Source of the DNA: Nocardioides sp. | Lineage (GTDB): Bacteria > Actinomycetota > Actinomycetes > Propionibacteriales > Nocardioidaceae | DNA length: 41,077 nucleotides | Direction of reading: 5' to 3' | Assembly: GCA_030452025.1 (NCBI GenBank) | Contig: JAKDNC010000001.1 | Location: forward strand, 1-41,077 | In this document: piece after piece, positions 26,068-41,077 of the stretch | Layout: every line of letters begins with the position of its first letter | Position numbering within the stretch: the stretch's first letter is position 1 | Notes under the pieces: model-generated | Databases searched by the model: none | Told to the model about the DNA's origin: nothing | What the model saw: the letters and a program-made list of their open reading frames with translations, nothing else | Made by a program: the position numbers and the translations under genes

Positions 26068-26928
26068 ATGAGCCCCTCCCGCGACGAGACGGACACGGCG
26101 TACGGCGCCCGGGCCACCGTCTCTGATGCAGAGTTCGACTCGACGATCGAGCGCTATCGGACCACCTCGGACGAGGCGATCGCAACGATGAAGGGCGCAC
26201 GGGAGATCCGTTTCGACCCCGGGAGCGACGAGCGCCTCGACGTGTGGGGAGCCGGGGATCGGGACTTGCGACCCGTCGTGGTCGCGGTGCACGGAGGATA
26301 TTGGCGGATGCTCTCGCGGCATGACACGGCCTTCATGGCGCGGGCGCTCGATGCCGCCGGGACGGCCACCGTCCCGATCGACTACACCCTGGCCCCCGAG
26401 GCGAGCCTCGAGGAGATCGTGCGGCAGGTCCGCGCAGCCATCGCCTGGGTCCACCGCAACGGTGCGGAGCATGGCCTGGATCCTGACAGGATCCACGTGG
26501 TCGGCAGCTCGGCCGGCGCTCACCTAGCGGCAATGACCGCCCTTGCCGGCTGGCAGGAGGAGCTCGGGTTGCCGCCGGACGTCGTCAAGGGTGCTCTGAC
26601 GATCAGCGGCCTCTTCGACCTGCGACCCTTGGTCGATTCCTTCGCCAACGAGTGGCTCGGGCTCGATCAGGAGCGCGCCGCCGCACTCAGCCCGGCGTTG
26701 GCGCCTGTCGGCCCGGCCCGGATGTCGGTGGCCCTCGCAGCGGATGAGGCCAGCGGGTTCCGCGAGCAGAGTCGTGACTTCCACAGACGGTGGCAAGCCC
26801 ACGGCGCAACCTACGACGTCGTCCCGGGTCGGAATCACTTCGACGTCTTCCTCGATCTGGCGGATCCGGACTCCACTCTCTTCCATCGCCTGCTTCAGTT
26901 TGTCGATGTCTCCCGACCTGGACGCTGA
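26068..26928 (+). CDS. Alpha/beta hydrolase, arylformamidase (kynurenine formamidase)-like
   Basis: HGGYWR, DYTLAP, nucleophile elbow GSSAGAHL, SGLFDLRPL, RNHFD. Confidence 0.8.
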   Translation: MSPSRDETDTAYGARATVSDAEFDSTIERYRTTSDEAIATMKGAREIRFDPGSDERLDVWGAGDRDLRPVVVAVHGGYWRMLSRHDTAFMARALDAAGTATVPIDYTLAPEASLEEIVRQVRAAIAWVHRNGAEHGLDPDRIHVVGSSAGAHLAAMTALAGWQEELGLPPDVVKGALTISGLFDLRPLVDSFANEWLGLDQERAAALSPALAPVGPARMSVALAADEASGFREQSRDFHRRWQAHGATYDVVPGRNHFDVFLDLADPDSTLFHRLLQFVDVSRPGR

Positions 26929-26962
26929 CCTGCGGGGCGAAGGTCCAAGTAGAGTCCCGCGG

Positions 26963-27901
26963 ATGGACACTCCCCGACTGCTGGACGGCCGACTCAAACT
27001 CCGGCACCTGCTGCTCGTGGACGCATTGAGCGAGCAGGGAAGCGTCGTCGGGGCGGCCGCGGCCATGCACATCACCCAACCGGTCGTGACCCGCGGACTG
27101 CACGACCTGGAGGCGATCCTCGGCGTCCAGCTCTATTCACGCGGACCGCGCGGAGTCACACCCACCGAGTTCGGGGTCGCGTTCACCAAGCACGCCCGGG
27201 CCGTGCTGGCCCAGCTGACCCAGGCGGCACGTCACGTCGAGGAGCTCGCCGACGCCACACGGGGGCAGGTGGTGGTGGGAACCCACCTCGCCGGGTCCAA
27301 CCTGTTGCTACCGCGGGCGATCGGCCACCTGAAGGCCAACCATCCGTTGCTCAGCGTGATCGTCCGGGAGGGGGCACCGGAGACGTTGCTGGTCGAGCTG
27401 ACCGCAGGACGGGTCGACCTGATCGTCGGCCGGCTGACCGGCCCCGGGACCGAGGACGTCCGACGTCACACGCTCTATCAGGAGTCCATCCGGCTGGTCA
27501 CCGGCACCGCACATCCCCTGGCCGACCGCGACCGGGTCACCCTCGATGAGCTCGGGGAGTATCCCTGGATCCTGCCCGGCGTCGAGACCAAACTGCGCCG
27601 GGAACTCGAGGAGTTCTTCGCCCGCAACGGGTTCGACCTGCCACCCAACCGCGTCGAGGCGACGTCGTTCCTCACCGTCCGGCAGCTGCTGATCGAGACC
27701 ACGATGGTGGCCGCACTGCCAGGCCTGATCGGTGCCGATGATCCACGGCTTGCGACCTTGCCATTCGACCTGGAGAAGGTCGGCCACGCGGTCGGGATGA
27801 CCCTGGCCGCGGAGCGATCACTCAGCCCGGCTGCCCGGGCGCTGATCGACTCACTGCAGACGATCGGTGCGGGGATCCGGGCGGAGTACGACGAGGGCTG
27901 A
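26963..27901 (+). CDS. LysR-family regulator of the nba cluster (NbaR/GalR-like)
   Basis: LKLRHLLLV..GSVVGAAAAMHITQPVVTRGL HTH; VDLIVGRL. Start 26963 (alternative 26906). Confidence 0.9.
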   Translation: MDTPRLLDGRLKLRHLLLVDALSEQGSVVGAAAAMHITQPVVTRGLHDLEAILGVQLYSRGPRGVTPTEFGVAFTKHARAVLAQLTQAARHVEELADATRGQVVVGTHLAGSNLLLPRAIGHLKANHPLLSVIVREGAPETLLVELTAGRVDLIVGRLTGPGTEDVRRHTLYQESIRLVTGTAHPLADRDRVTLDELGEYPWILPGVETKLRRELEEFFARNGFDLPPNRVEATSFLTVRQLLIETTMVAALPGLIGADDPRLATLPFDLEKVGHAVGMTLAAERSLSPAARALIDSLQTIGAGIRAEYDEG

Positions 27902-28042
27902 TCGGGCTCGCCTGATGCCCTTCTGGGTGACCAGGTGGACGGGGTGACCCACGCGAGGCTTCGCAGCGGCGTGGCTTGTGGCCGTCGTCCCTGGACGGGG
28001 GCAGGTGCGGCTCGTCTTCTCCACATCTTCGTCCTTTGGGTG

Positions 28043-28071
28043 TTGCGCCCATTTTCGAACAGACATACGAT
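28043..28071 (+). promoter_or_regulatory. Sigma-A-type promoter TTGCGC-N17-TACGAT overlapped by a LexA (SOS) box TCGAACAGACATACGA (28055-28070)
   Basis: -35/-10 spacing of 17 bp; two mismatches to the actinobacterial consensus TCGAAC-N4-GTTCGA. Confidence 0.65.
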
Positions 28072-28077
28072 GGACGT

Positions 28078-28212
28078 AGTCCTTCGGGTGAGATACATGA
28101 ATCGTCGTGCGAAGCCCGAGGGGTCAGACGCATCCCGGTTACGTAATAGCCCCCGGAGGGCCTCCGGCGTCGCAGTGTCCAAATTCCTGCGATCACCCCT
28201 GCGGAGGCCCCG
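28078..28212 (+). ncRNA. Putative structured 5' leader RNA of the DUF222/HNH gene (copy 1)
   Basis: Stems 28081-88/28115-22, 28096-100/28105-09, 28158-66/28202-10 (covers GGAGG) and 28170-75/28187-92. Confidence 0.45.
28126..28137 (+). repeat. 12-bp direct repeat AGACGCATCCCG, left unit (partner 29501-29512)
   Basis: Exact match on both sides of the ORF; also at 39620-39631 and 40995-41006. Confidence 0.7.
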
Positions 28213-29433
28213 ATGCACCCCATCACCAACAGTCTCACCGCGGTGCACACCGCGCTGGACGGTGCCGGAGACGCCCAGGCGATCTACCTCGACCTGGCAG
28301 CAAAGAAGGAAGCGCTCCGCGAGGTCGTCCGCGCCGAGTCCCGACTGACAGCAATGAAGATGAGCCTCCTGGCCGCCGCCGGCGACGTGGCCGACCAAAG
28401 CGCCTACAAGACACCGGGGACCTGGCTCGCCGACGACCAGAACCTCGACCCCAGCAAAGCCACCGCACAACAGAACATGGCCCAACGCCTCGAACGCCGG
28501 ATCCGCACCGCGACCGCGCTGGCCACCGGCACACTCAACGCCCAACAGGCAGACGTGATCACCAAAGTCCTCGAAGAGATCGCCGACGAACTCGACACCG
28601 AGCAGCGCATTGCCGCCGAGGAAACCCTGATCACCGAAGCCAAGGAACTCGACCCTCCACAGCTACGAGCCCTGGGCCGCCGACTGGTCGACATCCTCAA
28701 CCCCGAGAAGGCCGACGAACGGGAAGCCAAAAGACTCGACGACGAAGAGAAGCATGCCGAGCAGAAGTCACGGTTCAACCTGAAGAAGCTGGGGGACGGA
28801 ACGACCAGGATCACTGGCCGGGTCCCCGACGCAGTCGGCCAACGGCTACGCACCTACCTCGAGTCCTTCGCCAGCCCCCGCAAGCAAGCCCTCGAGGCGG
28901 ACGGGAAGGCACTGCCCCGGCCGAGGCTGCTGGCCAAAGCGCTCCGCGACCTGCTCGAGCGCATCGACCCCAACCAACTCCCCTTCCACGGCGGCGCCCC
29001 CACCACCGTGATGGTCACCATCACCCTGGACCAACTCCGCAAAGAACTCGCCACAGCCGACATCATCTACGACGACCAAGACCTCGCCATGACCGCAGGC
29101 CAGATACGACGCCTCCTATGCGAAGCCGAAGTCCTCCCCGTCATCCTCAACGGAGCCTCCCAACCACTCGACGTCGGGCGCACGCAACGATTCCACAACG
29201 TCGTCCAGAGGCGACTGATCTGCCTACGGGACAAAACCTGCAAAGCCAAAGGCTGCCACGTCCCCTCGGTCTGGTGCCACATCCACCACGAGATCCCCTG
29301 GGCAGCCGGCGGAAGCACCTCAGTCAAACAAGGCATGCCCCTGTGCCCCCACCACCACACCATCGTCCACGACCCGGCCTACCACCACGAGAAGAACAGC
29401 AACGGCGACATCCTCTTCCACAAACGCACATAG
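28213..29433 (+). CDS. DUF222-domain HNH endonuclease (13E12 repeat family), copy 1
   Basis: Helical DUF222-type N-region (ATALATGTLNAQQADVI, AEETLITEAKELDPPQLRALG), IRRLLCEAEVLPVIL..PLDVGRTQR and a Zn-binding HNH domain (RDKTCKAKGC..CHIHH..W..GG.T....LCPHHH). SD GGAGG. Confidence 0.92.
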   Translation: MHPITNSLTAVHTALDGAGDAQAIYLDLAAKKEALREVVRAESRLTAMKMSLLAAAGDVADQSAYKTPGTWLADDQNLDPSKATAQQNMAQRLERRIRTATALATGTLNAQQADVITKVLEEIADELDTEQRIAAEETLITEAKELDPPQLRALGRRLVDILNPEKADEREAKRLDDEEKHAEQKSRFNLKKLGDGTTRITGRVPDAVGQRLRTYLESFASPRKQALEADGKALPRPRLLAKALRDLLERIDPNQLPFHGGAPTTVMVTITLDQLRKELATADIIYDDQDLAMTAGQIRRLLCEAEVLPVILNGASQPLDVGRTQRFHNVVQRRLICLRDKTCKAKGCHVPSVWCHIHHEIPWAAGGSTSVKQGMPLCPHHHTIVHDPAYHHEKNSNGDILFHKRT

Positions 29434-29500
29434 CCTCCGCAACACGGACGACGGATGCCCCACACCCAACTTCAAGCGCGCCCCAACCAGCACGCCACCA

Positions 29501-29512
29501 AGACGCATCCCG
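29501..29512 (+). repeat. 12-bp direct repeat AGACGCATCCCG, right unit
   Basis: Identical to 28126-28137. Confidence 0.7.
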
Positions 29513-29746
29513 AGCCCGAACCCCGCGGCCGGACCCCGGGACTTGACCCGCGGCCGCGCCGAACCACGACACCGTGCATCTCGATCCGCGAGTGGACCGC
29601 ACCCCGCAGCGCGATAGGCGGCCAAGGGTCATCCGCCGGCGGAGCAGAAGCGAACCCCGCACCGTCAGGGATGAAGCGCGGGGTGTGCGACGCAAGCTCA
29701 CGCCGACTGCCGCGGCTCACCAGGTGACCACGCCTTGGTCTGGAGA

Positions 29747-30328
29747 TCAGTCGTCGATGCTCTCGCTCAGCACCTTGTAGTCGCTGTCCAGATCCACGTC
29801 CCACTCGGTGCCGTCATCCATGCGGACCTCGGCCTCGTAGGCCACCCCACGATCGTCGCTGGCCTCGAGGTCGACCACGGTGCCACCGCCGACGGCGTCC
29901 AGAGCCGCCTTCTCGACCGACTTGCGCTCCTCGGCGCCCAGGGCACGCTCGTCGCCGTCACGACCTTCGTTCACTTCGGAGTCGTTGCCATCGGAACCGT
30001 TGCCATCGGAATCGTTGTCGTCGTCGGCCTCATCGGTGTCCCGGCTGACCACGTTGAGGTCCTGATCGAGGCTGATCTCCACCTCAGTGCCGTCGTCCAT
30101 GCGGACCTCGGCCTCGTAGGCCTCGCCACGGTCGTCGCTGGTCTCGAGGTCGACCACGTTCCCGCCGCCGGCGGCCTCGATGGCCGCAGCGCCGACGCGG
30201 TCGCGCTCACTGCCCTGGAGATCGTTGTCGGCCGACGCGGTCCACACCGTGCCACCGACGCCGAGGATGGCGACGGCCGCGATCGTGGGAATGATGACAC
30301 GCTTCCTGCGGAGATGAGTGACGTTCAT
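29747..30328 (-). CDS. Secreted protein with two PepSY domains
   Basis: Signal peptide, then two repeats of GGG.VVDLE.SDDRG.AYEAEVRMDDGTE separated by an acidic linker. DNA repeat 29808-29896 / 30087-30175. Start at ATG 30328. Confidence 0.85.
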   Translation of the reverse strand: MNVTHLRRKRVIIPTIAAVAILGVGGTVWTASADNDLQGSERDRVGAAAIEAAGGGNVVDLETSDDRGEAYEAEVRMDDGTEVEISLDQDLNVVSRDTDEADDDNDSDGNGSDGNDSEVNEGRDGDERALGAEERKSVEKAALDAVGGGTVVDLEASDDRGVAYEAEVRMDDGTEWDVDLDSDYKVLSESIDD

Positions 30329-30394
30329 GAGTTGACCTCTCTCGACTTCTGAGGGTTTCCGGAGACTTGATGTGACCACCCTGCGTCCGGGCCG

Positions 30395-30421
30395 CTGAAG
30401 GCCACCTGAAAGTGTCTGAAA
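30395..30421 (-). promoter_or_regulatory. OmpR-family tandem binding repeats (TTCAG x3 on the minus strand) upstream of the PepSY gene
   Basis: CTGAA at 30395, 30406 and 30416 (11- and 10-bp periods); the same motif occurs upstream of the response regulator. Confidence 0.55.
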
Positions 30422-30427
30422 GCCCCT

Positions 30428-31804
30428 TCAGGTCGGCCGATCCGACCTCAGTGCGGGGAGACGCACGACGAATCGGGCGCCCCCGAGTCCCGACGACGTG
30501 ACCGCGACGTCTCCGTCGTGGGCAGTCACGATGTCCCGGACGATCGCCAGCCCGAGACCGCTGCCGCCGGCGTCACGTGCGCGCGCCTCGTCGAGCCGCA
30601 CGAACCGGTCGAAGACACGTGCCCGGTCCGCCTCCGGGATCCCGGGCCCGTCGTCCTCCACGATGAGCTCGACCCCTCCGGGGCTCTCGCGGACGGCGAC
30701 GGCCAGCGTCGCGTCCGCGTGGCGAGCGGCGTTCTCGACCAGATTCCGCGCGACCTGGCTGAGCGCGACCTGGTCGCCACGGACTCGTCCCGGCCCGATC
30801 CCGGCAGTGTCGACGGCGAGGCCGGGTCGGCGGATCCGGCGAGTCGCCGCCAGGGCCACGTCATCGAGGTCGACGTCGTGGTGCGTCCGCACGAGCGCGC
30901 CCTCATCCGCTCGGGTGAGGAGCAGCAGCTGCTCGACGAGCCTTTGCATGCGCGCGGACTCCTCCAGCACGGCATCTGCGAGCTCACCCTCGGGCAGTGA
31001 GCCTGGATGCGCCCGGGACACTTCGGCCGTCTGACGGATGCTGGCCAGTGGCGAGCGCAGCTCGTGGGAGGCATCGCCGACGAACTGCTGCTGTCGGTTG
31101 CGGGAGTCCTGCAGGCGCCCCAGCATCTGGTTCATGGTTCGCGCCAGCCGGTGGATCTCATCGCGCGACCGCGGCTCCGGCACCCTCCGGTCCAGCCGGT
31201 CACCGGTGATCTGCTCGACCTCACGCCGAATCCGTTCGACCGGTGCGAGCGCTCGGGTGGCCACCAGCCAGGTCGTGCCGCCCACCAGCAGGAGGACCAG
31301 CGGCAGCCCCACGAGCAGCGGCGTCACCAGCGCAGCCGTCGAGTCCTCCACCTCCTCCAGCGACGCAGCGACCGAGACGTCGTACTCCTGACCACCGGAC
31401 TCGGCCTCGTCGACCACAACCAGGTAGGCATCATCAGCACCCGGCAGCCGCACCTCGTCGGTCTCGTCGATGGGCAGCGGCCGGTCAAGGGGTTGCGAGG
31501 CGCGGACCACGACGCCCTCGGCGTCGCGCACCTGCCAGACCAGCTCGTCGGCCCCGTCGGCCCCGTCGTCGTCATCATCGTCTTCGGGCAGTGCCTCGTC
31601 GGGCAGTCCCGAGGTCTCGATCTGGGCGACCAGCTCCGAGAGGCGCTGCTCGGCATTGCTCTCCACGCCCTCGTGCAACGACTCGCGGACCAGGGCGACG
31701 AGGGTGAGGCCCCCGATGAGCAGGACCATCGCCACCACCATCACAGCCGCGGCCGTCGTGCGCAGCCGGACCGATGCGCGGCTCCAACCCAGCTCAGCCA
31801 CCAT
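30428..31804 (-). CDS. HAMP-domain sensor histidine kinase
   Basis: Two transmembrane segments, HAMP, DASHELRSPL, NLVENAARH, DDGPGI, GGSGLGLAI. Start at ATG 31804. Confidence 0.93.
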   Translation of the reverse strand: MVAELGWSRASVRLRTTAAAVMVVAMVLLIGGLTLVALVRESLHEGVESNAEQRLSELVAQIETSGLPDEALPEDDDDDDGADGADELVWQVRDAEGVVVRASQPLDRPLPIDETDEVRLPGADDAYLVVVDEAESGGQEYDVSVAASLEEVEDSTAALVTPLLVGLPLVLLLVGGTTWLVATRALAPVERIRREVEQITGDRLDRRVPEPRSRDEIHRLARTMNQMLGRLQDSRNRQQQFVGDASHELRSPLASIRQTAEVSRAHPGSLPEGELADAVLEESARMQRLVEQLLLLTRADEGALVRTHHDVDLDDVALAATRRIRRPGLAVDTAGIGPGRVRGDQVALSQVARNLVENAARHADATLAVAVRESPGGVELIVEDDGPGIPEADRARVFDRFVRLDEARARDAGGSGLGLAIVRDIVTAHDGDVAVTSSGLGGARFVVRLPALRSDRPT

Positions 31805-32471
31805 TGCTGGCCATCCGGTAGCCCGCACCACGCAGGGTCTCGATCGCCTTCCGGCCGAACGGGCGGTCCAGCTTGTTGCGGAGATGGCGAATGTAGACCT
31901 CGACAATATTGGGGTCCCCCTCGAAGTCGACGTCCCACACGGCCTCGAGGATCTGCCGCTTGGAGAGTACGTCGCCCTGGTGGCGGGTCAGGAAGGCGAG
32001 CATCGCGAACTCCCGGGCGGTGAGCTCGATCTCGATGTCCCCTCGCCAGACCCGGTGGGCCGCGGGATCCACGCGGATGTCCCCCGCCTCGAGCAGGGTG
32101 GGTCGCTCGCGCGCACCCCGACGGGCCACCGCCCGCAACCGGGCCACGAGGACCGGGAAGGAGAACGGCTTGGTGAGGTAGTCGTCGGCACCCGTGTCGA
32201 GCCCCTCGACCTGGTCCCACTCCCCGTCCTTGGCCGTCAGCATCAGGATCGGGGTCCAGTCCTTCTCACCCCGGAGCGTCTGGCAGACCTTGTAGCCGTT
32301 GATCCCCGGGAGCATCAGGTCGAGCAAGATCGCGTCGTACTCGTTCTCGCGAGCCAGCCACAGCCCATCGGTGCCGTCGTGGGCCACGTCAACGGCGAAG
32401 CCCTCCGCCTCCAACCCCACCCGCAGGGATCGCGCGAGCCGCTTCTCGTCGTCCACGACGAGCACGCGCAT
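31794..32471 (-). CDS. OmpR-family response regulator
   Basis: MRVLVVDDE, LLDLMLPG, LTAKD, GADDYLTKPF, winged helix (NIVEVYIRHLRNKL, TLRGAGY). True start is ATG 32471; the upstream in-frame extension is Fic debris. Confidence 0.93.
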   Translation of the reverse strand: MRVLVVDDEKRLARSLRVGLEAEGFAVDVAHDGTDGLWLARENEYDAILLDLMLPGINGYKVCQTLRGEKDWTPILMLTAKDGEWDQVEGLDTGADDYLTKPFSFPVLVARLRAVARRGARERPTLLEAGDIRVDPAAHRVWRGDIEIELTAREFAMLAFLTRHQGDVLSKRQILEAVWDVDFEGDPNIVEVYIRHLRNKLDRPFGRKAIETLRGAGYRMASNGG

Positions 32472-32513
32472 GAGGGCCTCCAGAGGGTTGGGGCCCAGTC
32501 TCGCGCATCCATC

Positions 32514-32529
32514 CTGAATGCACGCTGAA
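32514..32529 (-). promoter_or_regulatory. TTCAG-N6-TTCAG tandem repeat (putative autoregulatory site)
   Basis: CTGAA at 32514 and 32525 (11-bp period), about 43 bp upstream of the regulator start. Confidence 0.5.
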
Positions 32530-32589
32530 CTCTGCGACGTCATGATGGTCGTCCCGCGCGGACGCCCAGACAGAAGTCCCTGCTGTTGC

Positions 32590-33681
32590 CGGGTGACCTC
32601 GCCGCCGTGCTCCAGGAGCTCGAGAATGTCATCGGCCTGGAACAGCGCGGACTTCCGATACTTGCCGGTGGCCGGTCGGACGATCTCAACGGCGACCAGC
32701 TGCTTGACCAGCTTCTGCGCCGAGACGGTGGAGACTCCGAGGTTCTCCGCGAGAAACCGTGCCGAGATGACTGGGTAGTCGACCACCAGATCAACTGCCC
32801 AGTCGGAACCGCTCAGCTGCTGAGACCGCAGCGCCCACGTAGCCGAGGAACTGCTCCACATAGGCGTGCAACGCGGGACTCCGGTCATCCCCGTCGTAGC
32901 GGTACGTGGTCAGCGCGTTGACGTAACCATCCACATCACCGCGCAGCACCGTGGACAGGGGGATCACGCCACCGTCCACAAGGCCCGGCACGTTTCAGGA
33001 TGCCGTGGAACAGAGCCCTGCCCACACGGCCGTTGCCATCCTCGAATGGGTGGATGGTCTCGAACTGCGCATAAATGATCGCGGCCTGAACCACCGGCGA
33101 GTCACCTGAGGTATTGGCGTAGTTGAGCAGATCTTCCCTACCCGGATGCACCAACTCGTGCGGTGGGCCGGCGTAGTCGGCGTTGAACTTGTTGCTACCG
33201 CCGATCCACACCTGCGCGGCTCGATACCCAAGACGATGCCAAGGGAGGAAGTCGTGGTGGATGCCCAGCACATCCTCGTGGGTCCAGACCCCCACGCCGA
33301 GGAGCTCGATCGCTTCCTTCATCGCATCCACGTTTCGGATGACTGACGAGACGTTGTGGGACGCCCCGTCGTCAGCGATCTGCGCGATGGCGATGCTCCG
33401 AGGACTCTCCCGGATGCCCTCGATCCATGAGGAGGAGATGGATTCCGAGCGGATCATCGTGGAGTGCAAGACCGGAAGTGGGTTGGAGCGCAACCGCTCC
33501 CCGAGGCGCCCCGAGGCGCCCCAAGGCGCCCCAAGGCAATGGACATGTCGGCCGCATGCTCCAACACCTCTCCACCCAGAGCATTGGACACGGAGGCAAG
33601 CATGTCTGGGTGGTACCGGAGGTACCTGCTGCCTTGTCGATCGGCACGTGTGACCCCGGCGAACTCCGGCGGGACCTGCAC
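32590..33681 (-). pseudogene. Fic-family protein pseudogene (three frame disruptions; 3' end approximate)
   Basis: GTG 33681 with SD GAGGAGG. Fragments in successive frames: MQVPPEF..IALGRLG / RSNPLP..IRSESISSSWIEG..HPFEDGNGRVGR..ILKRAG / LVDGGVIPLS..AAERF / VDLVVDYPVIS..C-terminal HTH. Breaks at about 33500-33537, 32985 and 32800. Confidence 0.85.
33499..33537. repeat. 10-bp tandem repeat CCCC(G/A)AGGCG, about 4 units, inside the fic pseudogene
   Basis: ccccgaggcg ccccgaggcg ccccaaggcg ccccaaggc. Confidence 0.9.
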
Positions 33682-33819
33682 CCGTTCCCCTCCTCGGGCC
33701 TTCGTCAGACTGAAACCCGCCTTCTCGCAGCGGCGCTGTCCGTCCGGCGATGCGCTCAGGTCATCGCCGTGGATTTCGGCGTGCCCGTCGTCGGGGGCCG
33801 GCTTGGGACGGCGCGTCGG

Positions 33820-35715
33820 TCATGACCGACGCACGAGCCTCGCCGCGGTCGGCACCACGGTCAGCAGCGGCAGTGCGAGCACCCCGGCGCTGAGAGCGAG
33901 GTAGGCGGTGACGTCGACGGGCGGGAGCACCGGGCCGAGCAACCCGAGACCAACACCGAGCACCGCGGGGAGGACTGCGAGGGTGCCGATCAGCCAGGCC
34001 AGTCCCCCGGTGAGGGCGGCTTCGACGGTCAACATCCGCATCAGCTGCGCGCGGGTGGCGCCGGTGCGGCCGTAGAGCCGGAGCTCGGCACGGCGGCGGG
34101 CGGTGACCATCACCTGCGCATTGGCGGCGGCGAGGAACACGAAGGCGAGCAGCGCCAGCAACAGGGCCGTGGAGACGCGACGCTCAGCGGATCCGGTCGC
34201 GGTGACGCTCTCGGCGTACGCCGTCGGGCTCTGCGCCACCAGACCGAGGACCACGAGCCCGGTGCGGATGTCACCGAGGGACCGGGGCGCAGCTTCGATG
34301 AGCAGGGAGTCGGCCACTGCGCTCGGGTGGGCCGCGAGACCGTCCGGACCGACGAGGTAGTCACCGAACCCGAGCCCGCGCTCGTAGACGGCCACGACCG
34401 TGGGCGTGGTCGTGGTCCCGTCCGCCCAGCGCAACGGCACCGTGTCACCGACCCGCAAGTCGGTCTCGAAGGTGGCGTCCCTGCTGACTGCGACCGTGTC
34501 ACGGTTTTCCGTGAGGTCGGCCAACGAGCCGGCGCTGACGTCGGGGTCGGCGAGCAACCCACTCTGGCCAGCAGCAAGGGCCTGCACGGTCGTCGGCTCC
34601 CAGGCCAGCGCGTCGACCACGCCGTCCAAATCCTCGTCCGTCCGCACTCGAGCGGGAGCGCTGGCCAGAGTGGTGGTGCCGGTGATGCCGGGGAGGGCCG
34701 CGACCGAGTCGAGGTCCGACGAGGACAGCCCCTCGGGCGAGCTCGCGACGAGGTCCGCGCGCACGCCGTCTCGAAGCTGAGTCGCGCTGGCCTCGGCGAC
34801 GGTGCGGTCGACCGAGGTCTGGGCTGCTCCGGCCGTGAGCGCGAGTGCCAGCGGGACCACGACGATCGTCAACCGTTGCGAGAAGCCGCGGACGTTGCCC
34901 GCAGCGAGTCGTCCTGCGGGGCCCAGGCGCGACCCCCACCGATCCGTGAGTCGGAAGGCCCACGTGAGAAGCACCGGCCCCGCGAGCGCCGCCGCGCCCA
35001 CGAGCAGAAAGGCCGACGTCGCGGCACTGGCGCTGCCGATCGTGCCCGGGACGACGAGCGGGCTGAAGGCCGCTGTGACGCCGGACAGGCCGACGACGAC
35101 CGCAGCCACCCGTCGTACCGGACCGACCGTGCTGGCCTCGACCAAGCTGGCGCGGACCGCCTGGCTCGGCGCGAGGCGCAGCGTCTCCCGCGAGGCCAGC
35201 CGTGCCGACAGCCAGGCCACGGGCAACACCAGCACGGTGGCACCGAGGACCGGCAACGGGGTGAGCGAGAGCGCGCCGCCCGGGGTGATCAGTCCGGCGT
35301 CACGCAGGAGCGGAGTGAGCAGGCGCGCCAGCAGGACGCCGGCGATGGCGCCGACCGGTGCCGCGAGGGCCCCGACGAGCAGGACTTCGGCGCCGATCTG
35401 GGTGCGGAGCTGGGACCGGGTCGCGCCGACGGCGCGCAGCAGCGCGAGCTCGCGCCGCCGGCCGCGCAGGGCCAGCGAGACGGTCGCGACGATGACCAGC
35501 ACCACCACGATCACGACCGTGCCGGAGAACGAGCCCGCCAGCACCAGCAGCAGGCCGCTGCCGGTGACGTCCGCGGCGGCGCGGAGACCGGACTCGGCGA
35601 GCACCCCGGCGACCGCGAGCAGCAGTCCCGCCAGGGCGAGCACGAGGGCGGTGCCGGTCAGACCCGCACGGTGCGCCCAGGCGCTGCGGCGGGCCAGGCC
35701 CCACGCCGCCCTCAT
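33820..35715 (-). CDS. FtsX-like ABC exporter permease
   Basis: Two RRxELxL(L/Y)xxxGATRxQL motifs; multiple transmembrane segments. Confidence 0.88.
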   Translation of the reverse strand: MRAAWGLARRSAWAHRAGLTGTALVLALAGLLLAVAGVLAESGLRAAADVTGSGLLLVLAGSFSGTVVIVVVLVIVATVSLALRGRRRELALLRAVGATRSQLRTQIGAEVLLVGALAAPVGAIAGVLLARLLTPLLRDAGLITPGGALSLTPLPVLGATVLVLPVAWLSARLASRETLRLAPSQAVRASLVEASTVGPVRRVAAVVVGLSGVTAAFSPLVVPGTIGSASAATSAFLLVGAAALAGPVLLTWAFRLTDRWGSRLGPAGRLAAGNVRGFSQRLTIVVVPLALALTAGAAQTSVDRTVAEASATQLRDGVRADLVASSPEGLSSSDLDSVAALPGITGTTTLASAPARVRTDEDLDGVVDALAWEPTTVQALAAGQSGLLADPDVSAGSLADLTENRDTVAVSRDATFETDLRVGDTVPLRWADGTTTTPTVVAVYERGLGFGDYLVGPDGLAAHPSAVADSLLIEAAPRSLGDIRTGLVVLGLVAQSPTAYAESVTATGSAERRVSTALLLALLAFVFLAAANAQVMVTARRRAELRLYGRTGATRAQLMRMLTVEAALTGGLAWLIGTLAVLPAVLGVGLGLLGPVLPPVDVTAYLALSAGVLALPLLTVVPTAARLVRRS

Positions 35716-36464
35716 CGTCCCAGCCCGAGCATGCGCGTGTTGATCTGTTCGGCGGTCGGGTCGTCGAGCTGGTCGACCAGCACTCCGTCGCCGAGGAAGA
35801 GCACCCGGTCGGCCGCCGCCGCGACCTTCGGGTCGTGGGTGACCAGTACGACGGTCTGCCCGAGCTCGCGAGCCGTCGAGCGGAGCAGCTCGAGGACGTG
35901 GTCCGCAGTGCGGGAGTCCAGGGCACCGGTCGGCTCGTCGGCGAAGACGACGTCCGGGCGGGTGAACAGGGCACGGGCGATCGCCGCCCGCTGGGCCTGG
36001 CCCCCGGACAGCTCGCCGGGCAGCCGGCGCCCCATGCCGCCCAGTCCAACGACCTCGACCAGCTCGTCCAGTCGCGCGACGTCGGGTTCGCGGCCGGCGA
36101 GGACCACGGGCAGGGTGATGTTGTCGATGACCGGGAGGTGGTCGACAAGGTTGTAGGCCTGGAACACGAAGCCGATGTGGTCACGACGGAAGCGGGTCAG
36201 GGCGTCGGGCGACAGGGTGCTGATGTCACGGTCGCCGATGACGACCTGACCACGTGTCGGGGTGTCGAGCCCCGCAGCACAGCTGAGCAACGTGGACTTC
36301 CCGGAGCCAGAGGGCCCCATCACGGCGGTGAATGAGCCGCGCGCCAGGGCGAACGAGACGCCGCGAACGGCGTACACCGGCAGCGCGTCGTGCGCGTAGG
36401 ACTTGTGGAGGTCGATGAGGCGTACGGCGGTGCGGGTGGCCACGTCGGGCTGTTGGATCGTCAT
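35712..36464 (-). CDS. ABC exporter ATP-binding protein (LolD/MacB-like)
   Basis: GPSGSGKST, IGFVFQAYNL, LSGGQAQR, ADEPTGALD, VTHD. Confidence 0.93.
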   Translation of the reverse strand: MTIQQPDVATRTAVRLIDLHKSYAHDALPVYAVRGVSFALARGSFTAVMGPSGSGKSTLLSCAAGLDTPTRGQVVIGDRDISTLSPDALTRFRRDHIGFVFQAYNLVDHLPVIDNITLPVVLAGREPDVARLDELVEVVGLGGMGRRLPGELSGGQAQRAAIARALFTRPDVVFADEPTGALDSRTADHVLELLRSTARELGQTVVLVTHDPKVAAAADRVLFLGDGVLVDQLDDPTAEQINTRMLGLGR

Positions 36465-36570
36465 GTCCACCACGCTAGGAACTCGGGTCAGTGCCCATCG
36501 AGCCGCGCAAGGATGAGATCGGTAGTTCCATCCTTCGATGCAAGGGCCCGGGCGCCCCTGGGGTCGATCC

Positions 36571-37236
36571 TCAGGTGGGGACGTCGACGATGCGATTCTG
36601 GTAGGCCCAGACCGCCGCCTGGAGTCGCGATCGCACGCCGATCTTCGGCATCATCCGAGCGAGGTGTGACTTCACCGTGGAGACCTCCAGAGTGAGCTCG
36701 TCGGCGATCTCGTCGTTCGACATCCCCTGCGCCAGCAGCAGGAGGATGTCGAGCTCGCGGGCGGTGAGCACCTCGGTGGCACACGCGACGACCACGGGCC
36801 TGGTGCCGCGACGGATGACCACCTCGCGCAACACCCGCTTGGTGAGCGAGGTGTCGATGGTGCCATTCCCGGCGGCCACGGAGCGTACGGCGGCGACCAA
36901 CTCCTCCGGCTCGGCGTCCTTGAGCAGGAACCCGGAGGCGCCGGCCTCGAGCGCCCCGAAGAGGTAGTCGTCGATGTCGAAGGTGGTCAGGACCAGGACG
37001 GCGACCGGGTCCTCGACACCGGGCCCGCACAGCTCCCGGGTCGCTGCGATGCCGTCCATTCCCGGCATCCGGATGTCGGTGCACACGACGTCGGCGTGGT
37101 GCGTCCGTGCGGCCTCGACGGCCGCGCGGCCGTCCTCGACGGCGGCGACGACCTCGATGTCTGGCGCCGCGTTCAGCAGCGTGGTCAGCCCGGCCCGCAC
37201 CATCGGCTGGTCGTCGGCGACGACGACCCGGATCAC
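36571..37236 (-). CDS. NarL/LuxR-family response regulator
   Basis: VIRVVVADDQ, DIRMPGMDG, LTTFD, GFLLKD, LTARELDIL..GMSNDEIA. The GTG start at 37236 overlaps the kinase stop. Confidence 0.93.
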   Translation of the reverse strand: MIRVVVADDQPMVRAGLTTLLNAAPDIEVVAAVEDGRAAVEAARTHHADVVCTDIRMPGMDGIAATRELCGPGVEDPVAVLVLTTFDIDDYLFGALEAGASGFLLKDAEPEELVAAVRSVAAGNGTIDTSLTKRVLREVVIRRGTRPVVVACATEVLTARELDILLLLAQGMSNDEIADELTLEVSTVKSHLARMMPKIGVRSRLQAAVWAYQNRIVDVPT

Positions 37237-38552
37237 GTCGGCTCCCCCGTTGACTCCCGGGCTGGCTCCCCCGTCGGCTCCCCCGTCGGCTCCTGCGGGG
37301 CGGCGCGTGGCGTGCGTAGTCGCACCTGCCAACCGTCGTCAGTGGTGGGACCGACCTCGAGCTGGCTGCCGGTCAGCTCGGCTCGCTCACGCATTCCCAC
37401 GAGGCCGAGTCCACCACGGGCCTCGGGGTCGGACATCCGTGGGGCGCGTTCGTTGCGCACCGTGACCACCAGGGCCGCAGGGTCGCGGTCGTCGACCTCG
37501 ATCTCGCAGCGTGCGTCGGGGGCGTGCCGACCGGCGTTCGCCAGCGACTCCTGGACCGTCCGGTACGCCGCCAGCTGGGCCAGCGGCCCGATCCCGACCC
37601 CCGTCGTCCGCCGGTCCGGGTGCTCCAGCACGGTGAGGGTCACGTCCTGGCCGGCCGCGACGACTTCCCTCACCAGAGTGGGGATACCGGCGAGCGTCTC
37701 GGAGCGGACGACGTCCCGGGGTGCGGTCCCGGTCGTGTGCTCGGTCCCGTCGTGGTCGCGGAGGAGCCCGACCAGGTTGCGCAGGTCGCGCAGAACGGCG
37801 GTGCTCTGTCGTCGTACGTCGCCGACTGCGGCTTTGGCGCCGGTCGGGTCGGTGTCGATCTGGGTGGCGATCGCGGCGCTCATCACCGCGATCCCGGTCA
37901 AGTGATGCGCGGCGATGTCGTGGAGCTCGCGCGCCATCGCGGTGCGTTCGCGGGCCACGGCCGCCAGCACGAGCGCGTCATGCTCCCGCTCCAGAGCCCG
38001 CATCCGGTCCTCGCGGGCCGATCGCGACTCCCGGCGGGTCAGCACCAGCGTTGCGACCACCACTGGTGCACCGACCAGCACGACGGCCTGCGCGAGCGCC
38101 GCGAGCACTGCTTCCCCCACCGGTGCGTCGTCGCGCAACCCGGCCACAGTGTGCCCCGCCGCCGCCAGGAGCCCGGCCGCAGTCAACAGGGGCCAGACCC
38201 GCGATGCAGGGCACAGCGTGACCAGGGTGTAGATCGCGATGAGGAGCGCAATCGAGGTCAACCCGATCGCCGCGCCCATCCCGACCGCGGCCCCACACAC
38301 CACCGCTGCAGCGCTCACCCCCGCGACGACCTCAGGGTGCTGACGTCGCCAGGCCAACACGCCTGACTGGACCGCGAGATTGGCCAGCATTGCCCACCAT
38401 GCGGTGTCGCCGACCTCCGGCACTCCGTCCGCAACCGATGGATCGGCGCGGGAAAGCACCGGCAGAAGCAGCACCGTCGCCAGCGTGATGGTCGCGCAGG
38501 CTTCGGCCACCAGCACGTCGCTGCGCGATGGCGTTGCCCGTGGTTGTGTCAT
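37233..38552 (-). CDS. HisKA_3 sensor histidine kinase
   Basis: Transmembrane N-terminus, ERTAMARELHDIAAHHL, YRTVQESLANAGRHA, GLGLVGMRERA. Confidence 0.92.
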   Translation of the reverse strand: MTQPRATPSRSDVLVAEACATITLATVLLLPVLSRADPSVADGVPEVGDTAWWAMLANLAVQSGVLAWRRQHPEVVAGVSAAAVVCGAAVGMGAAIGLTSIALLIAIYTLVTLCPASRVWPLLTAAGLLAAAGHTVAGLRDDAPVGEAVLAALAQAVVLVGAPVVVATLVLTRRESRSAREDRMRALEREHDALVLAAVARERTAMARELHDIAAHHLTGIAVMSAAIATQIDTDPTGAKAAVGDVRRQSTAVLRDLRNLVGLLRDHDGTEHTTGTAPRDVVRSETLAGIPTLVREVVAAGQDVTLTVLEHPDRRTTGVGIGPLAQLAAYRTVQESLANAGRHAPDARCEIEVDDRDPAALVVTVRNERAPRMSDPEARGGLGLVGMRERAELTGSQLEVGPTTDDGWQVRLRTPRAAPQEPTGEPTGEPARESTGEPT

Positions 38553-38627
38553 GGGCGAACGCTATCGGAGGGGGTGGTCGCACCTTGGTCGTTCGGACAC
38601 CGGCTGCCTGGCGGGGCTCTCGTTGTC

Positions 38628-39053
38628 TCAGGCGCCGTGTGCCCGGCCGCGGGCGCACGCGATGAGCGCTTCGAGGTCGAGGCCGTACGACGGACCGGCC
38701 GTCTGCTGGTAGGCCTCCAGGCGGCCTGCTGCTCGTTCGACGAGTCTGGCGGAACCCACGGCGTTGCCGCGTGCCTGGTGGGTCAGGCCCACGCACAGCT
38801 GGGCCAGGCCTTGCCACAGCTCGCGTTCCTCCTCCGGGCACGACTTCCACCGGACCTCGAGGGCTTCGTGTGCCGCGAAGGGACGCCCGTCGTCCAGCAG
38901 CCGGCGTGCGTACGCCAAGGTCGCCTCCGGCGACAGCGGCTCTTCGGAGATCGGCTCGACGCCCGTGGCGCCATAGGGCAAGGGGCGTCCGAGCGCGTCG
39001 CGCGGTCGAGCTTGCTGGGCTCGTCCTTGCTCGTTTCGATCGCGATCAGCCAC
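38628..39053 (-). CDS. DUF309-domain protein
   Basis: RPRDALGRPLPYG, GRPFAAHEALEVRWK, LWQGLAQLCVGLTHQARGN. GTG start at 39053. Confidence 0.85.
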   Translation of the reverse strand: MADRDRNEQGRAQQARPRDALGRPLPYGATGVEPISEEPLSPEATLAYARRLLDDGRPFAAHEALEVRWKSCPEEERELWQGLAQLCVGLTHQARGNAVGSARLVERAAGRLEAYQQTAGPSYGLDLEALIACARGRAHGA

Positions 39054-39536
39054 GGCGGGACTGCTTCGCGAACGGCAGGAGCACGCCGGCAAGGTCACGT
39101 CGCGCACGCATGACCGGTAGAGCCGTCTCCGGGTGGTGGCACGCAAGGACCACTGGTGTTCCCTCCTGCATCCTTCTCCTTCATCGGAGTCTTTGGGCGG
39201 CCCAACCAGGCGCCCCATCATCCTGCCGCCCACCATACGGGCGAGCGGAGGCAACTGAGCCCGGCTGGGACGGTCTTGTTTGGTCTGACTGCCACCAGGA
39301 CGCAAGATCCTCAGCTGTCGTTGGCCAGCCGTTTCCCCTGGAGATCCGGCTCGGGCCAGGCCGAGGAGAACCAGATCTGCCCACCGGCGCCCATCCGCTT
39401 CGATGGGGATCAGATTCCCTAGTGGGGGCCGTCGCTCTCCGCTCGGTTCGACTCTTGGTCTCCTCCGGCCGCCGACGCGACCGCCGGAGCAACTGCTGTG
39501 TGGATCGCTCTTCTCCACATCTTCGTCCTTTGGGTG

Positions 39537-39565
39537 TTGTGCCTATTTTCGAACAGGCGTACGAT
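39537..39565 (+). promoter_or_regulatory. Sigma-A-type promoter TTGTGC-N17-TACGAT overlapped by a LexA box TCGAACAGGCGTACGA (39549-39564)
   Basis: One mismatch to TCGAAC-N4-GTTCGA; 17-bp spacer. Confidence 0.72.
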
Positions 39566-39571
39566 GGACGT

Positions 39572-39706
39572 AGTCCTTCGGGTGAGATACACGAATCGTC
39601 GTGCGAAGCCCGAGGGGTCAGACGCATCCCGGTTACGTAATAGCCCCCGGAGGGCCTCCGGCGTCGCAGTGTCCAAATTCCTGCGATCACCCCTGCGGAG
39701 GCCCCG
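39572..39706 (+). ncRNA. Putative structured 5' leader RNA (copy 2)
   Basis: Same stems as copy 1. Its single difference turns a U-G pair into C-G. Confidence 0.45.
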
Positions 39707-40927
39707 ATGCACCCCATCACCAACAGTCTCACCGCGGTGCACACCGCGCTGGACGGTGCCGGAGACGCCCAGGCGATCTACCTCGACCTGGCAGCAAAGA
39801 AGGAAGCGCTCCGCGAGGTCGTCCGCGCCGAGTCCCGACTGACAGCAATGAAGATGAGCCTCCTGGCCGCCGCCGGCGACGTGGCCGACCAAAGCGCCTA
39901 CAAGACACCGGGGACCTGGCTCGCCGACGACCAGAACCTCGACCCCAGCAAAGCCACCGCACAACAGAACATGGCCCAACGCCTCGAACGCCGGATCCGC
40001 ACCGCGACCGCGCTGGCCACCGGCACACTCAACGCCCAACAGGCAGACGTGATCACCAAAGTCCTCGAAGAGATCGCCGACGAACTCGACACCGAGCAGC
40101 GCATTGCCGCCGAGGAAACCCTGATCACCGAAGCCAAGGAACTCGACCCTCCACAGCTACGAGCCCTGGGCCGCCGACTGGTCGACATCCTCAACCCCGA
40201 GAAGGCCGACGAACGGGAAGCCAAAAGACTCGACGACGAAGAGAAGCATGCCGAGCAGAAGTCACGGTTCAACCTGAAGAAGCTGGGGGACGGAACGACC
40301 AGGATCACTGGCCGGGTCCCCGACGCAGTCGGCCAACGGCTACGCACCTACCTCGAGTCCTTCGCCAGCCCCCGCAAGCAAGCCCTCGAGGCGGACGGGA
40401 AGGCACTGCCCCGGCCGAGGCTGCTGGCCAAAGCGCTCCGCGACCTGCTCGAGCGCATCGACCCCAACCAACTCCCCTTCCACGGCGGCGCCCCCACCAC
40501 CGTGATGGTCACCATCACCCTGGACCAACTCCGCAAAGAACTCGCCACAGCCGACATCATCTACGACGACCAAGACCTCGCCATGACCGCAGGCCAGATA
40601 CGACGCCTCCTATGCGAAGCCGAAGTCCTCCCCGTCATCCTCAACGGAGCCTCCCAACCACTCGACGTCGGGCGCACGCAACGATTCCACAACGTCGTCC
40701 AGAGGCGACTGATCTGCCTACGGGACAAAACCTGCAAAGCCAAAGGCTGCCACGTCCCCTCGGTCTGGTGCCACATCCACCACGAGATCCCCTGGGCAGC
40801 CGGCGGAAGCACCTCAGTCAAACAAGGCATGCCCCTGTGCCCCCACCACCACACCATCGTCCACGACCCGGCCTACCACCACGAGAAGAACAGCAACGGC
40901 GACATCCTCTTCCACAAACGCACATAG
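39707..40927 (+). CDS. DUF222-domain HNH endonuclease, copy 2 (identical protein)
   Basis: 406-aa translation identical to 28213-29433. Confidence 0.92.
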   Translation: MHPITNSLTAVHTALDGAGDAQAIYLDLAAKKEALREVVRAESRLTAMKMSLLAAAGDVADQSAYKTPGTWLADDQNLDPSKATAQQNMAQRLERRIRTATALATGTLNAQQADVITKVLEEIADELDTEQRIAAEETLITEAKELDPPQLRALGRRLVDILNPEKADEREAKRLDDEEKHAEQKSRFNLKKLGDGTTRITGRVPDAVGQRLRTYLESFASPRKQALEADGKALPRPRLLAKALRDLLERIDPNQLPFHGGAPTTVMVTITLDQLRKELATADIIYDDQDLAMTAGQIRRLLCEAEVLPVILNGASQPLDVGRTQRFHNVVQRRLICLRDKTCKAKGCHVPSVWCHIHHEIPWAAGGSTSVKQGMPLCPHHHTIVHDPAYHHEKNSNGDILFHKRT

Positions 40928-41077
40928 CCTCCGCAACACGGACGACGGATGCCCCACACCCAACTTCAAGCGCGCCCCAACCAGCACGCCACCAAGACGC
41001 ATCCCGAGCCCGAACCCCGCGGCCGGACCCCGGGACTTGACCCGCGGCCGCGCCGAACCACGACACCGTGCATCTCG

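What the first reader, a model, noticed from the sequence alone, without database searches (positions are those of the whole stretch)
28015..41077. Transposase-free DUF222-HNH element present as two near-identical direct copies bracketing about 10 kb
Seen: 28015-29583 equals 39509-41077 (offset 11,494). The left boundary is sharp (TCTTCTCCACAT...), about 200 bp upstream of the ORF, and identity continues at least 150 bp past the stop. The only gene is a DUF222+HNH protein; I see no DDE, HUH, serine or tyrosine recombinase motif and no terminal inverted repeats. Known: DUF222/HNH (mycobacterial 13E12) genes are multicopy in actinobacteria, and I know of no established mechanism for their spread. 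Inference: this is a recently copied selfish unit (promoter + leader + nuclease + 3' non-coding tail) that may move by nuclease-initiated homing or repair. The pair could also mobilise, delete or amplify the intervening genes like a composite transposon.
Basis: partly seen in the sequence, partly recalled or inferred. Interest (0 to 1): 0.8.

Follow-up and report, generated by a model that had tools for sequence, protein, structure and literature searches.

The report
Amplified loop with switch-led nuclease
The two copies are one turn of a closed 11.5-kb DNA loop, likely amplified about threefold by recombination between copies of a transposase-free nuclease gene, and that gene sits behind a conserved, uncatalogued RNA leader predicted to switch its translation on and off.

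Summary
The repeat is real (5 differences in 1,569 bp), but 'two recent copies' overstates it. The right copy ends at an assembly branch. In the possible source run, one element plus nine accessory genes form one closed 11,494-bp contig at depth 20, against 5.8-7.5 for chromosomal contigs. All five differences lie in the first 84 bp, so the body's identity is probably graph sharing or gene conversion. A 91%-identical relative in another study already has the DUF309-element-PepSY junction at single-copy depth, so that site is old. Best reading: tandem amplification by recombination between direct copies, like an IS26 translocatable unit without a transposase; the exit junction is unseen. The conserved unit runs from a TTCTCCACA tip through a LexA-like box, a leader and the ORF to about the stop codon; two empty sites were found in relatives. 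This scan has found such DUF222-HNH cassettes before on other DNA. Two features were not in my look-ups: a covarying leader RNA (22 of 100 genus genomes, no Rfam match) whose core competes with an anti-Shine-Dalgarno helix, and an A/C-rich silent-site gradient suggesting single-stranded repair intermediates.

The parts
26744..27901 (+). LysR regulator ORF (true start downstream); last gene of the single-copy flank that enters the loop
   Evidence: Pfam; X1 flank contig depth 5.8 ending at 28044
28015..28025 (+). Left-tip motif TCTTCTCCACA of the left copy
   Evidence: Same motif at the same place in L151 and L144, weak or absent in L150 and L146; retained at the empty site in G533
28055..28071 (+). 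LexA-like box (TCGAAC-N4-ATACGA) overlapping a -10-like TACGAT; the consensus is recalled, binding untested
   Evidence: such boxes lie upstream of 22 of 81 homologous loci and in 0 of 75 control windows
28072..28215 (+). Structured leader: P1 hairpin; core stem 28127-28131/28167-28171; anti-SD arm 28158-28166 pairing with the SD arm 28202-28210
28213..29433 (+). DUF222-HNH ORF, 406 aa: ParB/KorB-like helical region (about 41-160) and HNH zinc-finger nuclease region (about 324-399); extreme A/C bias at silent sites
29434..29683 (+). Non-coding tail; 29465-29683 is 94.5% identical to C102 (29529-29663 exact); 29649-29683 is also in C688. Not a conserved element end
29747..32530 (-). Cargo module 1: PepSY protein, sensor kinase, OmpR-type regulator
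   Evidence: Pfam; found as a block at other loci in relatives
32600..33690 (-). Cargo: split Fic-family gene
33820..38552 (-). Cargo module 2: FtsX-like permease, ABC ATPase, NarL-type regulator, HisKA_3 kinase
38628..39050 (-). Cargo: DUF309 gene (a second, 66%-identical DUF309 lies on C178)
39499..41077 (+). Right copy: TGTGGA-N9-TCCACA tip, better LexA-like box (39549-39564), leader (39566-39709), ORF (39707-40927); cut by the contig end. Its DUF309-side junction is also present in X3
28015..39508 (.). The 11,494-bp loop unit (one element plus cargo)
   Evidence: X1 contig of 11,524 bp at depth 20; X2 joint 39592 to 28099

Best explanation
The window shows one turn of a closed 11,494-bp loop (one DUF222-HNH unit plus nine accessory genes) at about three times chromosomal contig depth, most likely a tandem amplification made by homologous recombination between directly repeated copies of the unit. 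SHOWN: the loop, its depth, an old DUF309-side site, and a conserved unit of TTCTCCACA tip, LexA-like box, structured leader and ORF ending near the stop. INFERRED, in order: (1) DNA damage lifts LexA repression. (2) The leader normally pairs its anti-SD arm with the ribosome-binding site; a ligand or protein that stabilises the rival core fold would free it. (3) The ParB-like/HNH protein nicks or cuts at or in a copy. (4) Repair by strand invasion into another copy homogenises copies, leaves the lower strand single-stranded towards the 3' end, and sometimes resolves as a crossover. (5) A crossover between the LysR-side copy and the DUF309-side copy, or Campbell-type integration of a circle carrying the latter, gave the direct pair, and unequal recombination amplified it. 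The element supplies portable homology and probably the initiating break; it is not a transposase.
For: LOOP: X1 contig 28015-39538 of 11,524 bp, depth 20, against 5.8 (LysR flank), 6.52 and 7.49 (C102). X2 loop pieces are at 4.0-8.3 (7 pieces) against 3.1-4.8 (4 C102 pieces). X3 shows no excess (8.31 vs 7.97 and 8.7). No Rep, integrase or transposase family among the loop ORFs scanned. The left copy has its own 5' alleles, so a second copy exists at LysR. CONVERSION-LIKE PATTERN: a G008 pair is 99.4% identical from -79 to stop+5, each copy with its own diverged SOS-like box just outside. REP13E12 loci are conversion and inversion hotspots in M. tuberculosis (PMC13061034, PMC13157036, passages) and are LexA-bound (PMC3381160, passages). 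IS26 units amplify and circularise RecA-dependently (PMC11102541, abstract). STRAND SIGNATURE: 4-fold sites A14/C64/G21/T1% against A6/C50/G37/T7% in 1,922 host ORFs; +0.225 after amino-acid correction, reached by 5 of 1,108 host genes, the element's own ORFs not excluded. The excess rises from quarter 2 to quarter 4 in 15 of 18 genomes, and from quarter 1 to 4 in 13 of 13 scorable genomes; host genes show no gradient. LEADER: 25 of 27 parsed hits have a DUF222 ORF downstream, and in 27 of 27 the CUC arm pairs with a GGAG(G)-like stretch 40-65 nt downstream in the MFE fold.
Against: No exit junction from the loop was found: only C102 shares more than 24 bp with it, and that may be a separate relic. 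Depth is per contig, can sum strains, and X1 and X2 are one study. X3 has the 'circle' junction at 1x depth, and its DUF309 contig runs on for 937 bp unlike the window beyond 38612, so the loop's new junction may lie in the cargo, not at the element. Cargo genes and IS3 show no strand bias. Private mutations in 11 G007 copies do not flip polarity along the element (104 vs 51 in one direction, same sign in all 6 bins). Flank mutagenesis is seen only in G007 (left flank T/(T+C) 0.38 vs 0.07-0.11, 5 genes), not in 22 left and 20 right flanks elsewhere, nor in this window. In the window variant the anti-SD fold is 13.9 kcal/mol better than the core fold in ViennaRNA, and this variant lacks the kink-turn. 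No nuclease activity was tested.
Confidence: 0.5

Rival explanations
1. No real bracket. The loop is a closed unit (free circle or array with breakpoints in the cargo) carrying only the old DUF309-side copy. The LysR-side copy is a separate element that the assembler merged with it.
For: The X1 loop contig is unbroken except at the 30-bp entry. Differences between copies are confined to the junction-proximal 84 bp (6.0%), close to the 5.5% of the C102 tail. X3 has the element inside a DUF309-element-PepSY block at 1x depth. X4 holds a 95%-identical 205-bp piece of the ORF.
Against: No replication gene in the loop and no plasmid match beyond single genes. A full-length 94% copy should leave long separate pieces in X1, and none is among the pieces listed (table cut).
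Confidence: 0.27
2. One reading: a recent nuclease-driven copying event made two copies that move the cargo as a composite transposon.
For: Empty sites exist: the G016 site is empty in G533 (73 bp vs about 1.65 kb), and the L150 site is empty in G016 (26 bp vs a 3.1-kb insert with extra genes on both sides). G007 copies L042 and L049 share about 165 bp of right flank. The cargo is a mosaic of separately occurring modules.
Against: The right-hand site is old (X3). No genome among 400 carries the cargo as a block (best 4.2 of 9.9 kb). No target duplication and no defined right end.
Confidence: 0.13
3. The excess depth comes from several strains or species in the sample sharing the cargo, with no amplification in any one cell.
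For: The runs are metagenomes. Two sites in the ORF (28938, 28944) differ between X1 and both the window and X2.
Against: Sharing alone would not close the unit into a loop. The X1 contig matches the cargo with no other listed difference (7 differences in 11,524 bp, all in the element).
Confidence: 0.1

Closest known systems
REP13E12 / 13E12 repeat family (DUF222 + HNH) of mycobacteria
   Same: PF02720 domain, HNH-like C-terminus, dispersed multicopy, SOS-type box, conversion and rearrangement between copies (PMC3381160, PMC13061034, PMC13157036; passages read).
   Different: Here a copy sits in an amplified cargo loop and carries a structured leader with an anti-SD arm. The passages read describe neither this nor a mechanism of spread.
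IS26 pseudo-compound transposon / translocatable unit
   Same: Direct copies; the repeat unit is one element plus cargo; tandem and circular forms arise through RecA (PMC11102541, abstract and outline).
   Different: No DDE transposase, no terminal inverted repeats, no target duplication; the cargo is regulators and an ABC exporter.
IS200/IS605-type OMEGA (IscB-omegaRNA, HEARO) elements
   Same: Structured RNA upstream of an HNH ORF (recalled); the HNH region aligns to IscB at Z 7.1 and 6.8.
   Different: Only the generic HNH fold matches. No RuvC or TnpA was detected and Rfam gave no match. The leader starts at an internal promoter and ends in the ribosome-binding site, so it looks cis-regulatory, not like a guide.
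Translational riboswitches with a kink-turn (SAM-I, c-di-GMP-II, cobalamin; recalled)
   Same: Conserved core with a CUC-CAG-GA / GA-GGG kink-turn pattern (in the majority variant) and a mutually exclusive anti-SD helix.
   Different: No Rfam family matches. It was found only in this genus and only before DUF222-HNH genes. No ligand is known, and it may bind a protein instead.
Free-standing HNH homing and nicking endonucleases
   Same: Zinc-binding HNH motif intact (C343, C348, H358, H359, C378, H381, H382, H386 invariant in 58 homologues). Phage HNH proteins are site-specific nickases (PMC3592412, passages).
   Different: No fixed cognate site; copies occupy unrelated intergenic loci.

Membership tests
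DUF222-HNH (13E12) repeat | PF02720 above the gathering cut-off | tested here: met
   99.6 bits vs 24.4
DUF222-HNH (13E12) repeat | C-terminal HNH nuclease | tested here: met
   No Pfam HNH hit at E<=0.001, but a fold match to McrA HNH (Z 8.0), an invariant Cys/His set, and PF01844 on several homologues
DUF222-HNH (13E12) repeat | Dispersed multicopy with a DNA-damage promoter | tested here: met
   LexA binding itself not tested
IS26-type pseudo-compound transposon / TU | DDE transposase with terminal inverted repeats | tested here: not met
IS26-type pseudo-compound transposon / TU | Closed unit of one element plus cargo at raised copy | tested here: met
   (contig depth only, one study)
IS26-type pseudo-compound transposon / TU | Both flanking copies on one molecule, with unique outer flanks | not testable with these tools
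   Only short-read contigs; exit junction not found
Plasmid | Replication gene or plasmid backbone | tested here: not met
   None among the loop ORFs scanned; 0 of 72,556 plasmid records cover 80% of 31600-39500
OMEGA / IscB / HEARO | Known omegaRNA or HEARO RNA | tested here: not met
   Rfam: no relevant hit
OMEGA / IscB / HEARO | RuvC domain with the HNH | tested here: inconclusive
   Only residues 318-399 align to IscB; no Pfam hit
Riboswitch | Covarying structure in a 5' leader | tested here: met
   P1: 5 of 10 pairs change on both sides (6 sequences). Core P2: 3 of 5 pairs, 96.6% of cells paired vs 45-54% when slid (16 sequences). The sequences are related
Riboswitch | Expression platform (anti-SD alternative) | tested here: met
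   Predicted only: 27 of 27 parsed hits; window fold
Riboswitch | Binds a small-molecule ligand | not testable with these tools
   Needs in-line probing
Homing endonuclease | Cuts a conserved empty allele | tested here: inconclusive
   The TTCTCCAC motif is in 1 of 2 collinear empty sites examined and absent from 5 of 5 non-collinear orthologous left flanks; scar and target cannot be told apart

The most novel reading that the evidence does not exclude
DUF222-HNH units are a transposase-free class of mobile DNA that spreads and amplifies neighbouring genes by nuclease-triggered gap repair. In Nocardioides they are gated twice, by LexA and by a new riboswitch-like leader, and this 11.5-kb loop is one caught amplifying its cargo.
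Probability: 0.22. Interest if true: 0.82.

Novelty: new variant of a known kind. Interest (0 to 1): 0.56.

Why it matters
DUF222-HNH genes are very common in actinobacteria, and none of the papers I found explains their spread. This locus offers three concrete handles in a harmless genus. First, a loop whose copy number can be measured with and without RecA, DNA damage or the nuclease. Second, a strand-biased mutation gradient that points to single-stranded repair intermediates. Third, a leader RNA, apparently uncatalogued, that can be probed directly. Amplification through direct repeats is itself ordinary; the interest lies in the element and its control.

Tried and rejected
(1) CLOSE RELATIVES. 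None by protein in genome or metagenome contigs, and none by DNA at E<=1e-60 in 400 genus genomes. No match in plasmid or phage records, nor for the leader motif in viral contigs. No RNA holder was listed. (2) EXIT FLANK. C102's IS3 is complete and has no target duplication, so C102 is not simply the rest of the left copy. Neighbours of LysR in G290 and G360 differ from each other and gave no empty site. X3 does not cover 27958-28014; this gap is not used as evidence. (3) RIGHT END AT 29683. Rejected, because the 35-bp motif also occurs in C688 without the gene. (4) LONG INVERTED ENDS. Seen in the G007 family but absent here. (5) LOCAL CLUSTERING of the 16 G007 copies is not significant (P 0.10). 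(6) FOLD SEARCH. Foldseek gave no hit at E<=0.001; the ParB/KorB match (Z 7.3-7.5) is below the tool's caution level for helical folds; no recombinase was among the 50 rows, which does not exclude one. (7) REDONE OR FLAWED ANALYSES. One search picked wrong frames for several loci and was replaced. Helix 5 was mis-registered by one column, which lowers that call's totals; only helices 1-4 are used. The host control used the last 330 codons, so the quarter 2 to 4 comparison is the fair one, and G000 codon usage was applied to all genomes. (8) LEADER COUNTS. Model R1 weak hits: 15 of 23 had the ORF start within my distance window; of the other 8, one had a displaced match, three lay at contig ends and four were chance. 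Model R2 found 0 of 120 genomes across the phylum and does not detect the window's own variant. 3 of 30 R2 loci were not parsed, and 14 of the 30 overlap the training set. (9) LITERATURE. Searches listed no paper on a mechanism of spread or on this RNA. Subscription papers and all supplements were not seen, and RNA motif catalogues outside Rfam could hold it.
Full report
OBSERVATION. The repeat is real: 1,569 bp at offset 11,494 with 5 transitions, all in the first 84 bp. It is the only long repeat in the window. The window is contig C445 of a fragmented assembly (890 contigs, N50 6.5 kb). Named protein hits place the family in Nocardioides. Contig-end overlaps fall from 79 at k=55 to 2 at k=59, and C445 ends on the first 55-mer of a 135-bp exact repeat shared with C102. 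The right copy is therefore cut by an assembly branch. Both copies run through the same graph edges after 28098, so their body identity cannot date them (inference from how such graphs work).

WHAT THE RUNS SHOW. Four runs of two studies hold the stretch. In X1, a possible source, 28015-39538 is one 11,524-bp contig (11,494+30) with the right copy's alleles and depth 20, and the LysR flank contig (depth 5.8) joins it over 30 bp. Chromosomal C102 contigs are at 6.52 and 7.49. X2, from the same study, has the same joint, with loop pieces at 4.0-8.3 against 3.1-4.8. X3, from another study and 3-9% diverged, has one contig running DUF309 flank - element (143 differences in about 1,550 bp) - 141 other letters - PepSY, at depth 8.31 against 7.97 and 8.7 for chromosomal contigs. 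So the unit is closed and over-represented in G000's samples, while the junction that closes it at the element is old and single-copy in a relative. No exit from the loop was found. The cargo is nine accessory genes in modules that occur apart in relatives (400 genomes), with no Rep, integrase or transposase hit.

THE UNIT. Homologues occur in 19 of 21 genomes searched, up to 21 matches per genome. The closest ones (48-52% amino-acid identity; L144, L146, L150, L151) lie at different loci and share about 190 bp upstream: a TTCTCCACA tip (clear in L144 and L151), a LexA-like box, a -10-like hexamer and a leader. Homology between them stops at the stop codon, and in X3 at stop+8. Two collinear empty sites were found in four four-genome searches. 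The G016 site is empty in G533 and still reads AACTTCTCCACG. The L150 site is empty in G016, where L150 has a 3.1-kb insert with extra genes. The motif is missing from five non-collinear orthologous flanks, so it may be a scar rather than a target. The model (pLDDT 85) has a ParB/KorB-like helical region and an HNH region with all zinc ligands invariant; the Z values of 7-8 are modest.

THE LEADER. Six leaders (five independent) give a consensus fold with both-side changes in 5 of 10 P1 pairs. A model built from them found a further relative at 57 bits and weaker hits upstream of other DUF222 genes. These define a majority variant, GUYGC-GA-GGG-U(2-3 nt)GURAUA-hairpin-CUC-CAG-GA-GCGAC, which fits a kink-turn (pattern recalled). 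A second model found it in 22 of 100 genus genomes (1-6 copies each) and in 0 of 120 genomes across the phylum. Of 27 parsed loci, 25 have the ORF downstream and the other 2 end within 251 bp; in all 27 the CUC arm is predicted to pair with a GGAG(G)-like stretch 40-65 nt downstream. Core and anti-SD folds exclude each other. In the window the anti-SD helix is 28158-28166/28202-28210 and wins by 13.9 kcal/mol in the energy model. Rfam has no match. I read this as a likely translational switch, sensing a ligand or the protein itself; this is prediction only.

STRAND SIGNATURE. Silent sites of the ORF are extremely A/C-rich on the coding strand, and the bias continues into the non-coding tail. 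It rises towards the 3' end in 15 of 18 genomes (quarter 2 to 4), with no gradient in 1,108 host genes. This fits deamination of a single-stranded lower strand, the opposite of transcription exposure (established knowledge), as expected if copies are repeatedly re-made by gap repair. Against this, private mutations in G007 do not flip polarity, and host-flank mutagenesis appears only in G007. Kin share ancestry, so genome counts overstate independence.

MECHANISM AND RIVALS. I put 0.5 on tandem amplification by recombination between direct copies, with the nuclease as probable initiator. I put 0.27 on a closed unit with one copy plus a separate LysR copy merged by the assembler, 0.13 on a recent composite transposon, and 0.1 on strain sharing. 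Steps from LexA release to crossover are inferred. A conversion-like pair in G008 and the conversion and inversion hotspots at REP13E12 loci support recombination between copies as the common outcome.

PAPERS AND PRIOR NOTES. Passages read: PMC13157036, PMC10589994, PMC3592412, PMC13061034, PMC3381160. Abstract and outline: PMC11102541. All others were seen as search listings only; no supplements were read. Nine of my ten searches addressed the family or the RNA and listed no mechanism and no such leader. Earlier scan notes hold 19 findings on DUF222-HNH cassettes (8 shown), so the element class is not new to the scan. Look-ups for cargo loops, strand skew and a leader switch with DUF222 returned no finding holding all the words.

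VERDICT. A member of the DUF222-HNH family that works like an IS26 translocatable unit but is not one. New variant of a known kind; interest 0.56.

Noticed in passing
G007:C1, loci L041-L056: A complete genome holds 16 DUF222-HNH copies, about 1.9 kb and 65-93% identical (most 84-88%), with long branched inverted ends. Outer flanks are G/T-rich on the left (+0.71 falling to about 0 over 250 bp) and A/C-rich on the right (-0.60); host genes ending at the left flank are C-to-T shifted in their last 150 nt.
   Followed up: partly
L042 and L049 (G007), right flanks: Two copies share about 165 bp of apparent host DNA beyond the right end motif, suggesting flank carry-over.
   Followed up: no
G000 C102:4100-4260 and C688:6180-6320; window 29649-29683: A small repeated intergenic sequence of about 135 bp with a perfect GC-rich hairpin; its first 35 bp also end the element's tail.
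   Followed up: partly
G000 C102:4224-5878: A complete IS3-like element without target duplication sits between an orphan element tail and what looks like an IS21 istA fragment (recalled identification).
   Followed up: partly
upstream of 81 DUF222 loci; window 39499-39519: TCCACA/TGTGGA (DnaA-box-like, recalled) lies upstream of 38 of 81 loci against 4 of 75 control windows; full DnaA-box matches 12 of 81 vs 0 of 75.
   Followed up: partly
window 235-27901: Lower-GC (65.7%) catabolic island with transporter, molybdopterin-dehydrogenase-like and aromatic-degradation-like genes (read from translations, mostly not scanned); the aldehyde dehydrogenase part is found in 14 of 400 genus genomes.
   Followed up: no
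G000 C39:1861-3198: A third, intact, 33%-identical DUF222-HNH gene with a GTTCTCCACA motif upstream and the same A/C bias.
   Followed up: partly
L089-L093 (G009): Tandem arrays of about 22-bp units upstream of several DUF222 copies.
   Followed up: no
G016:C1:2542992 and 2556269: Two 91%-identical direct copies 13 kb apart in a near-complete genome: a natural test case for the same amplification.
   Followed up: no
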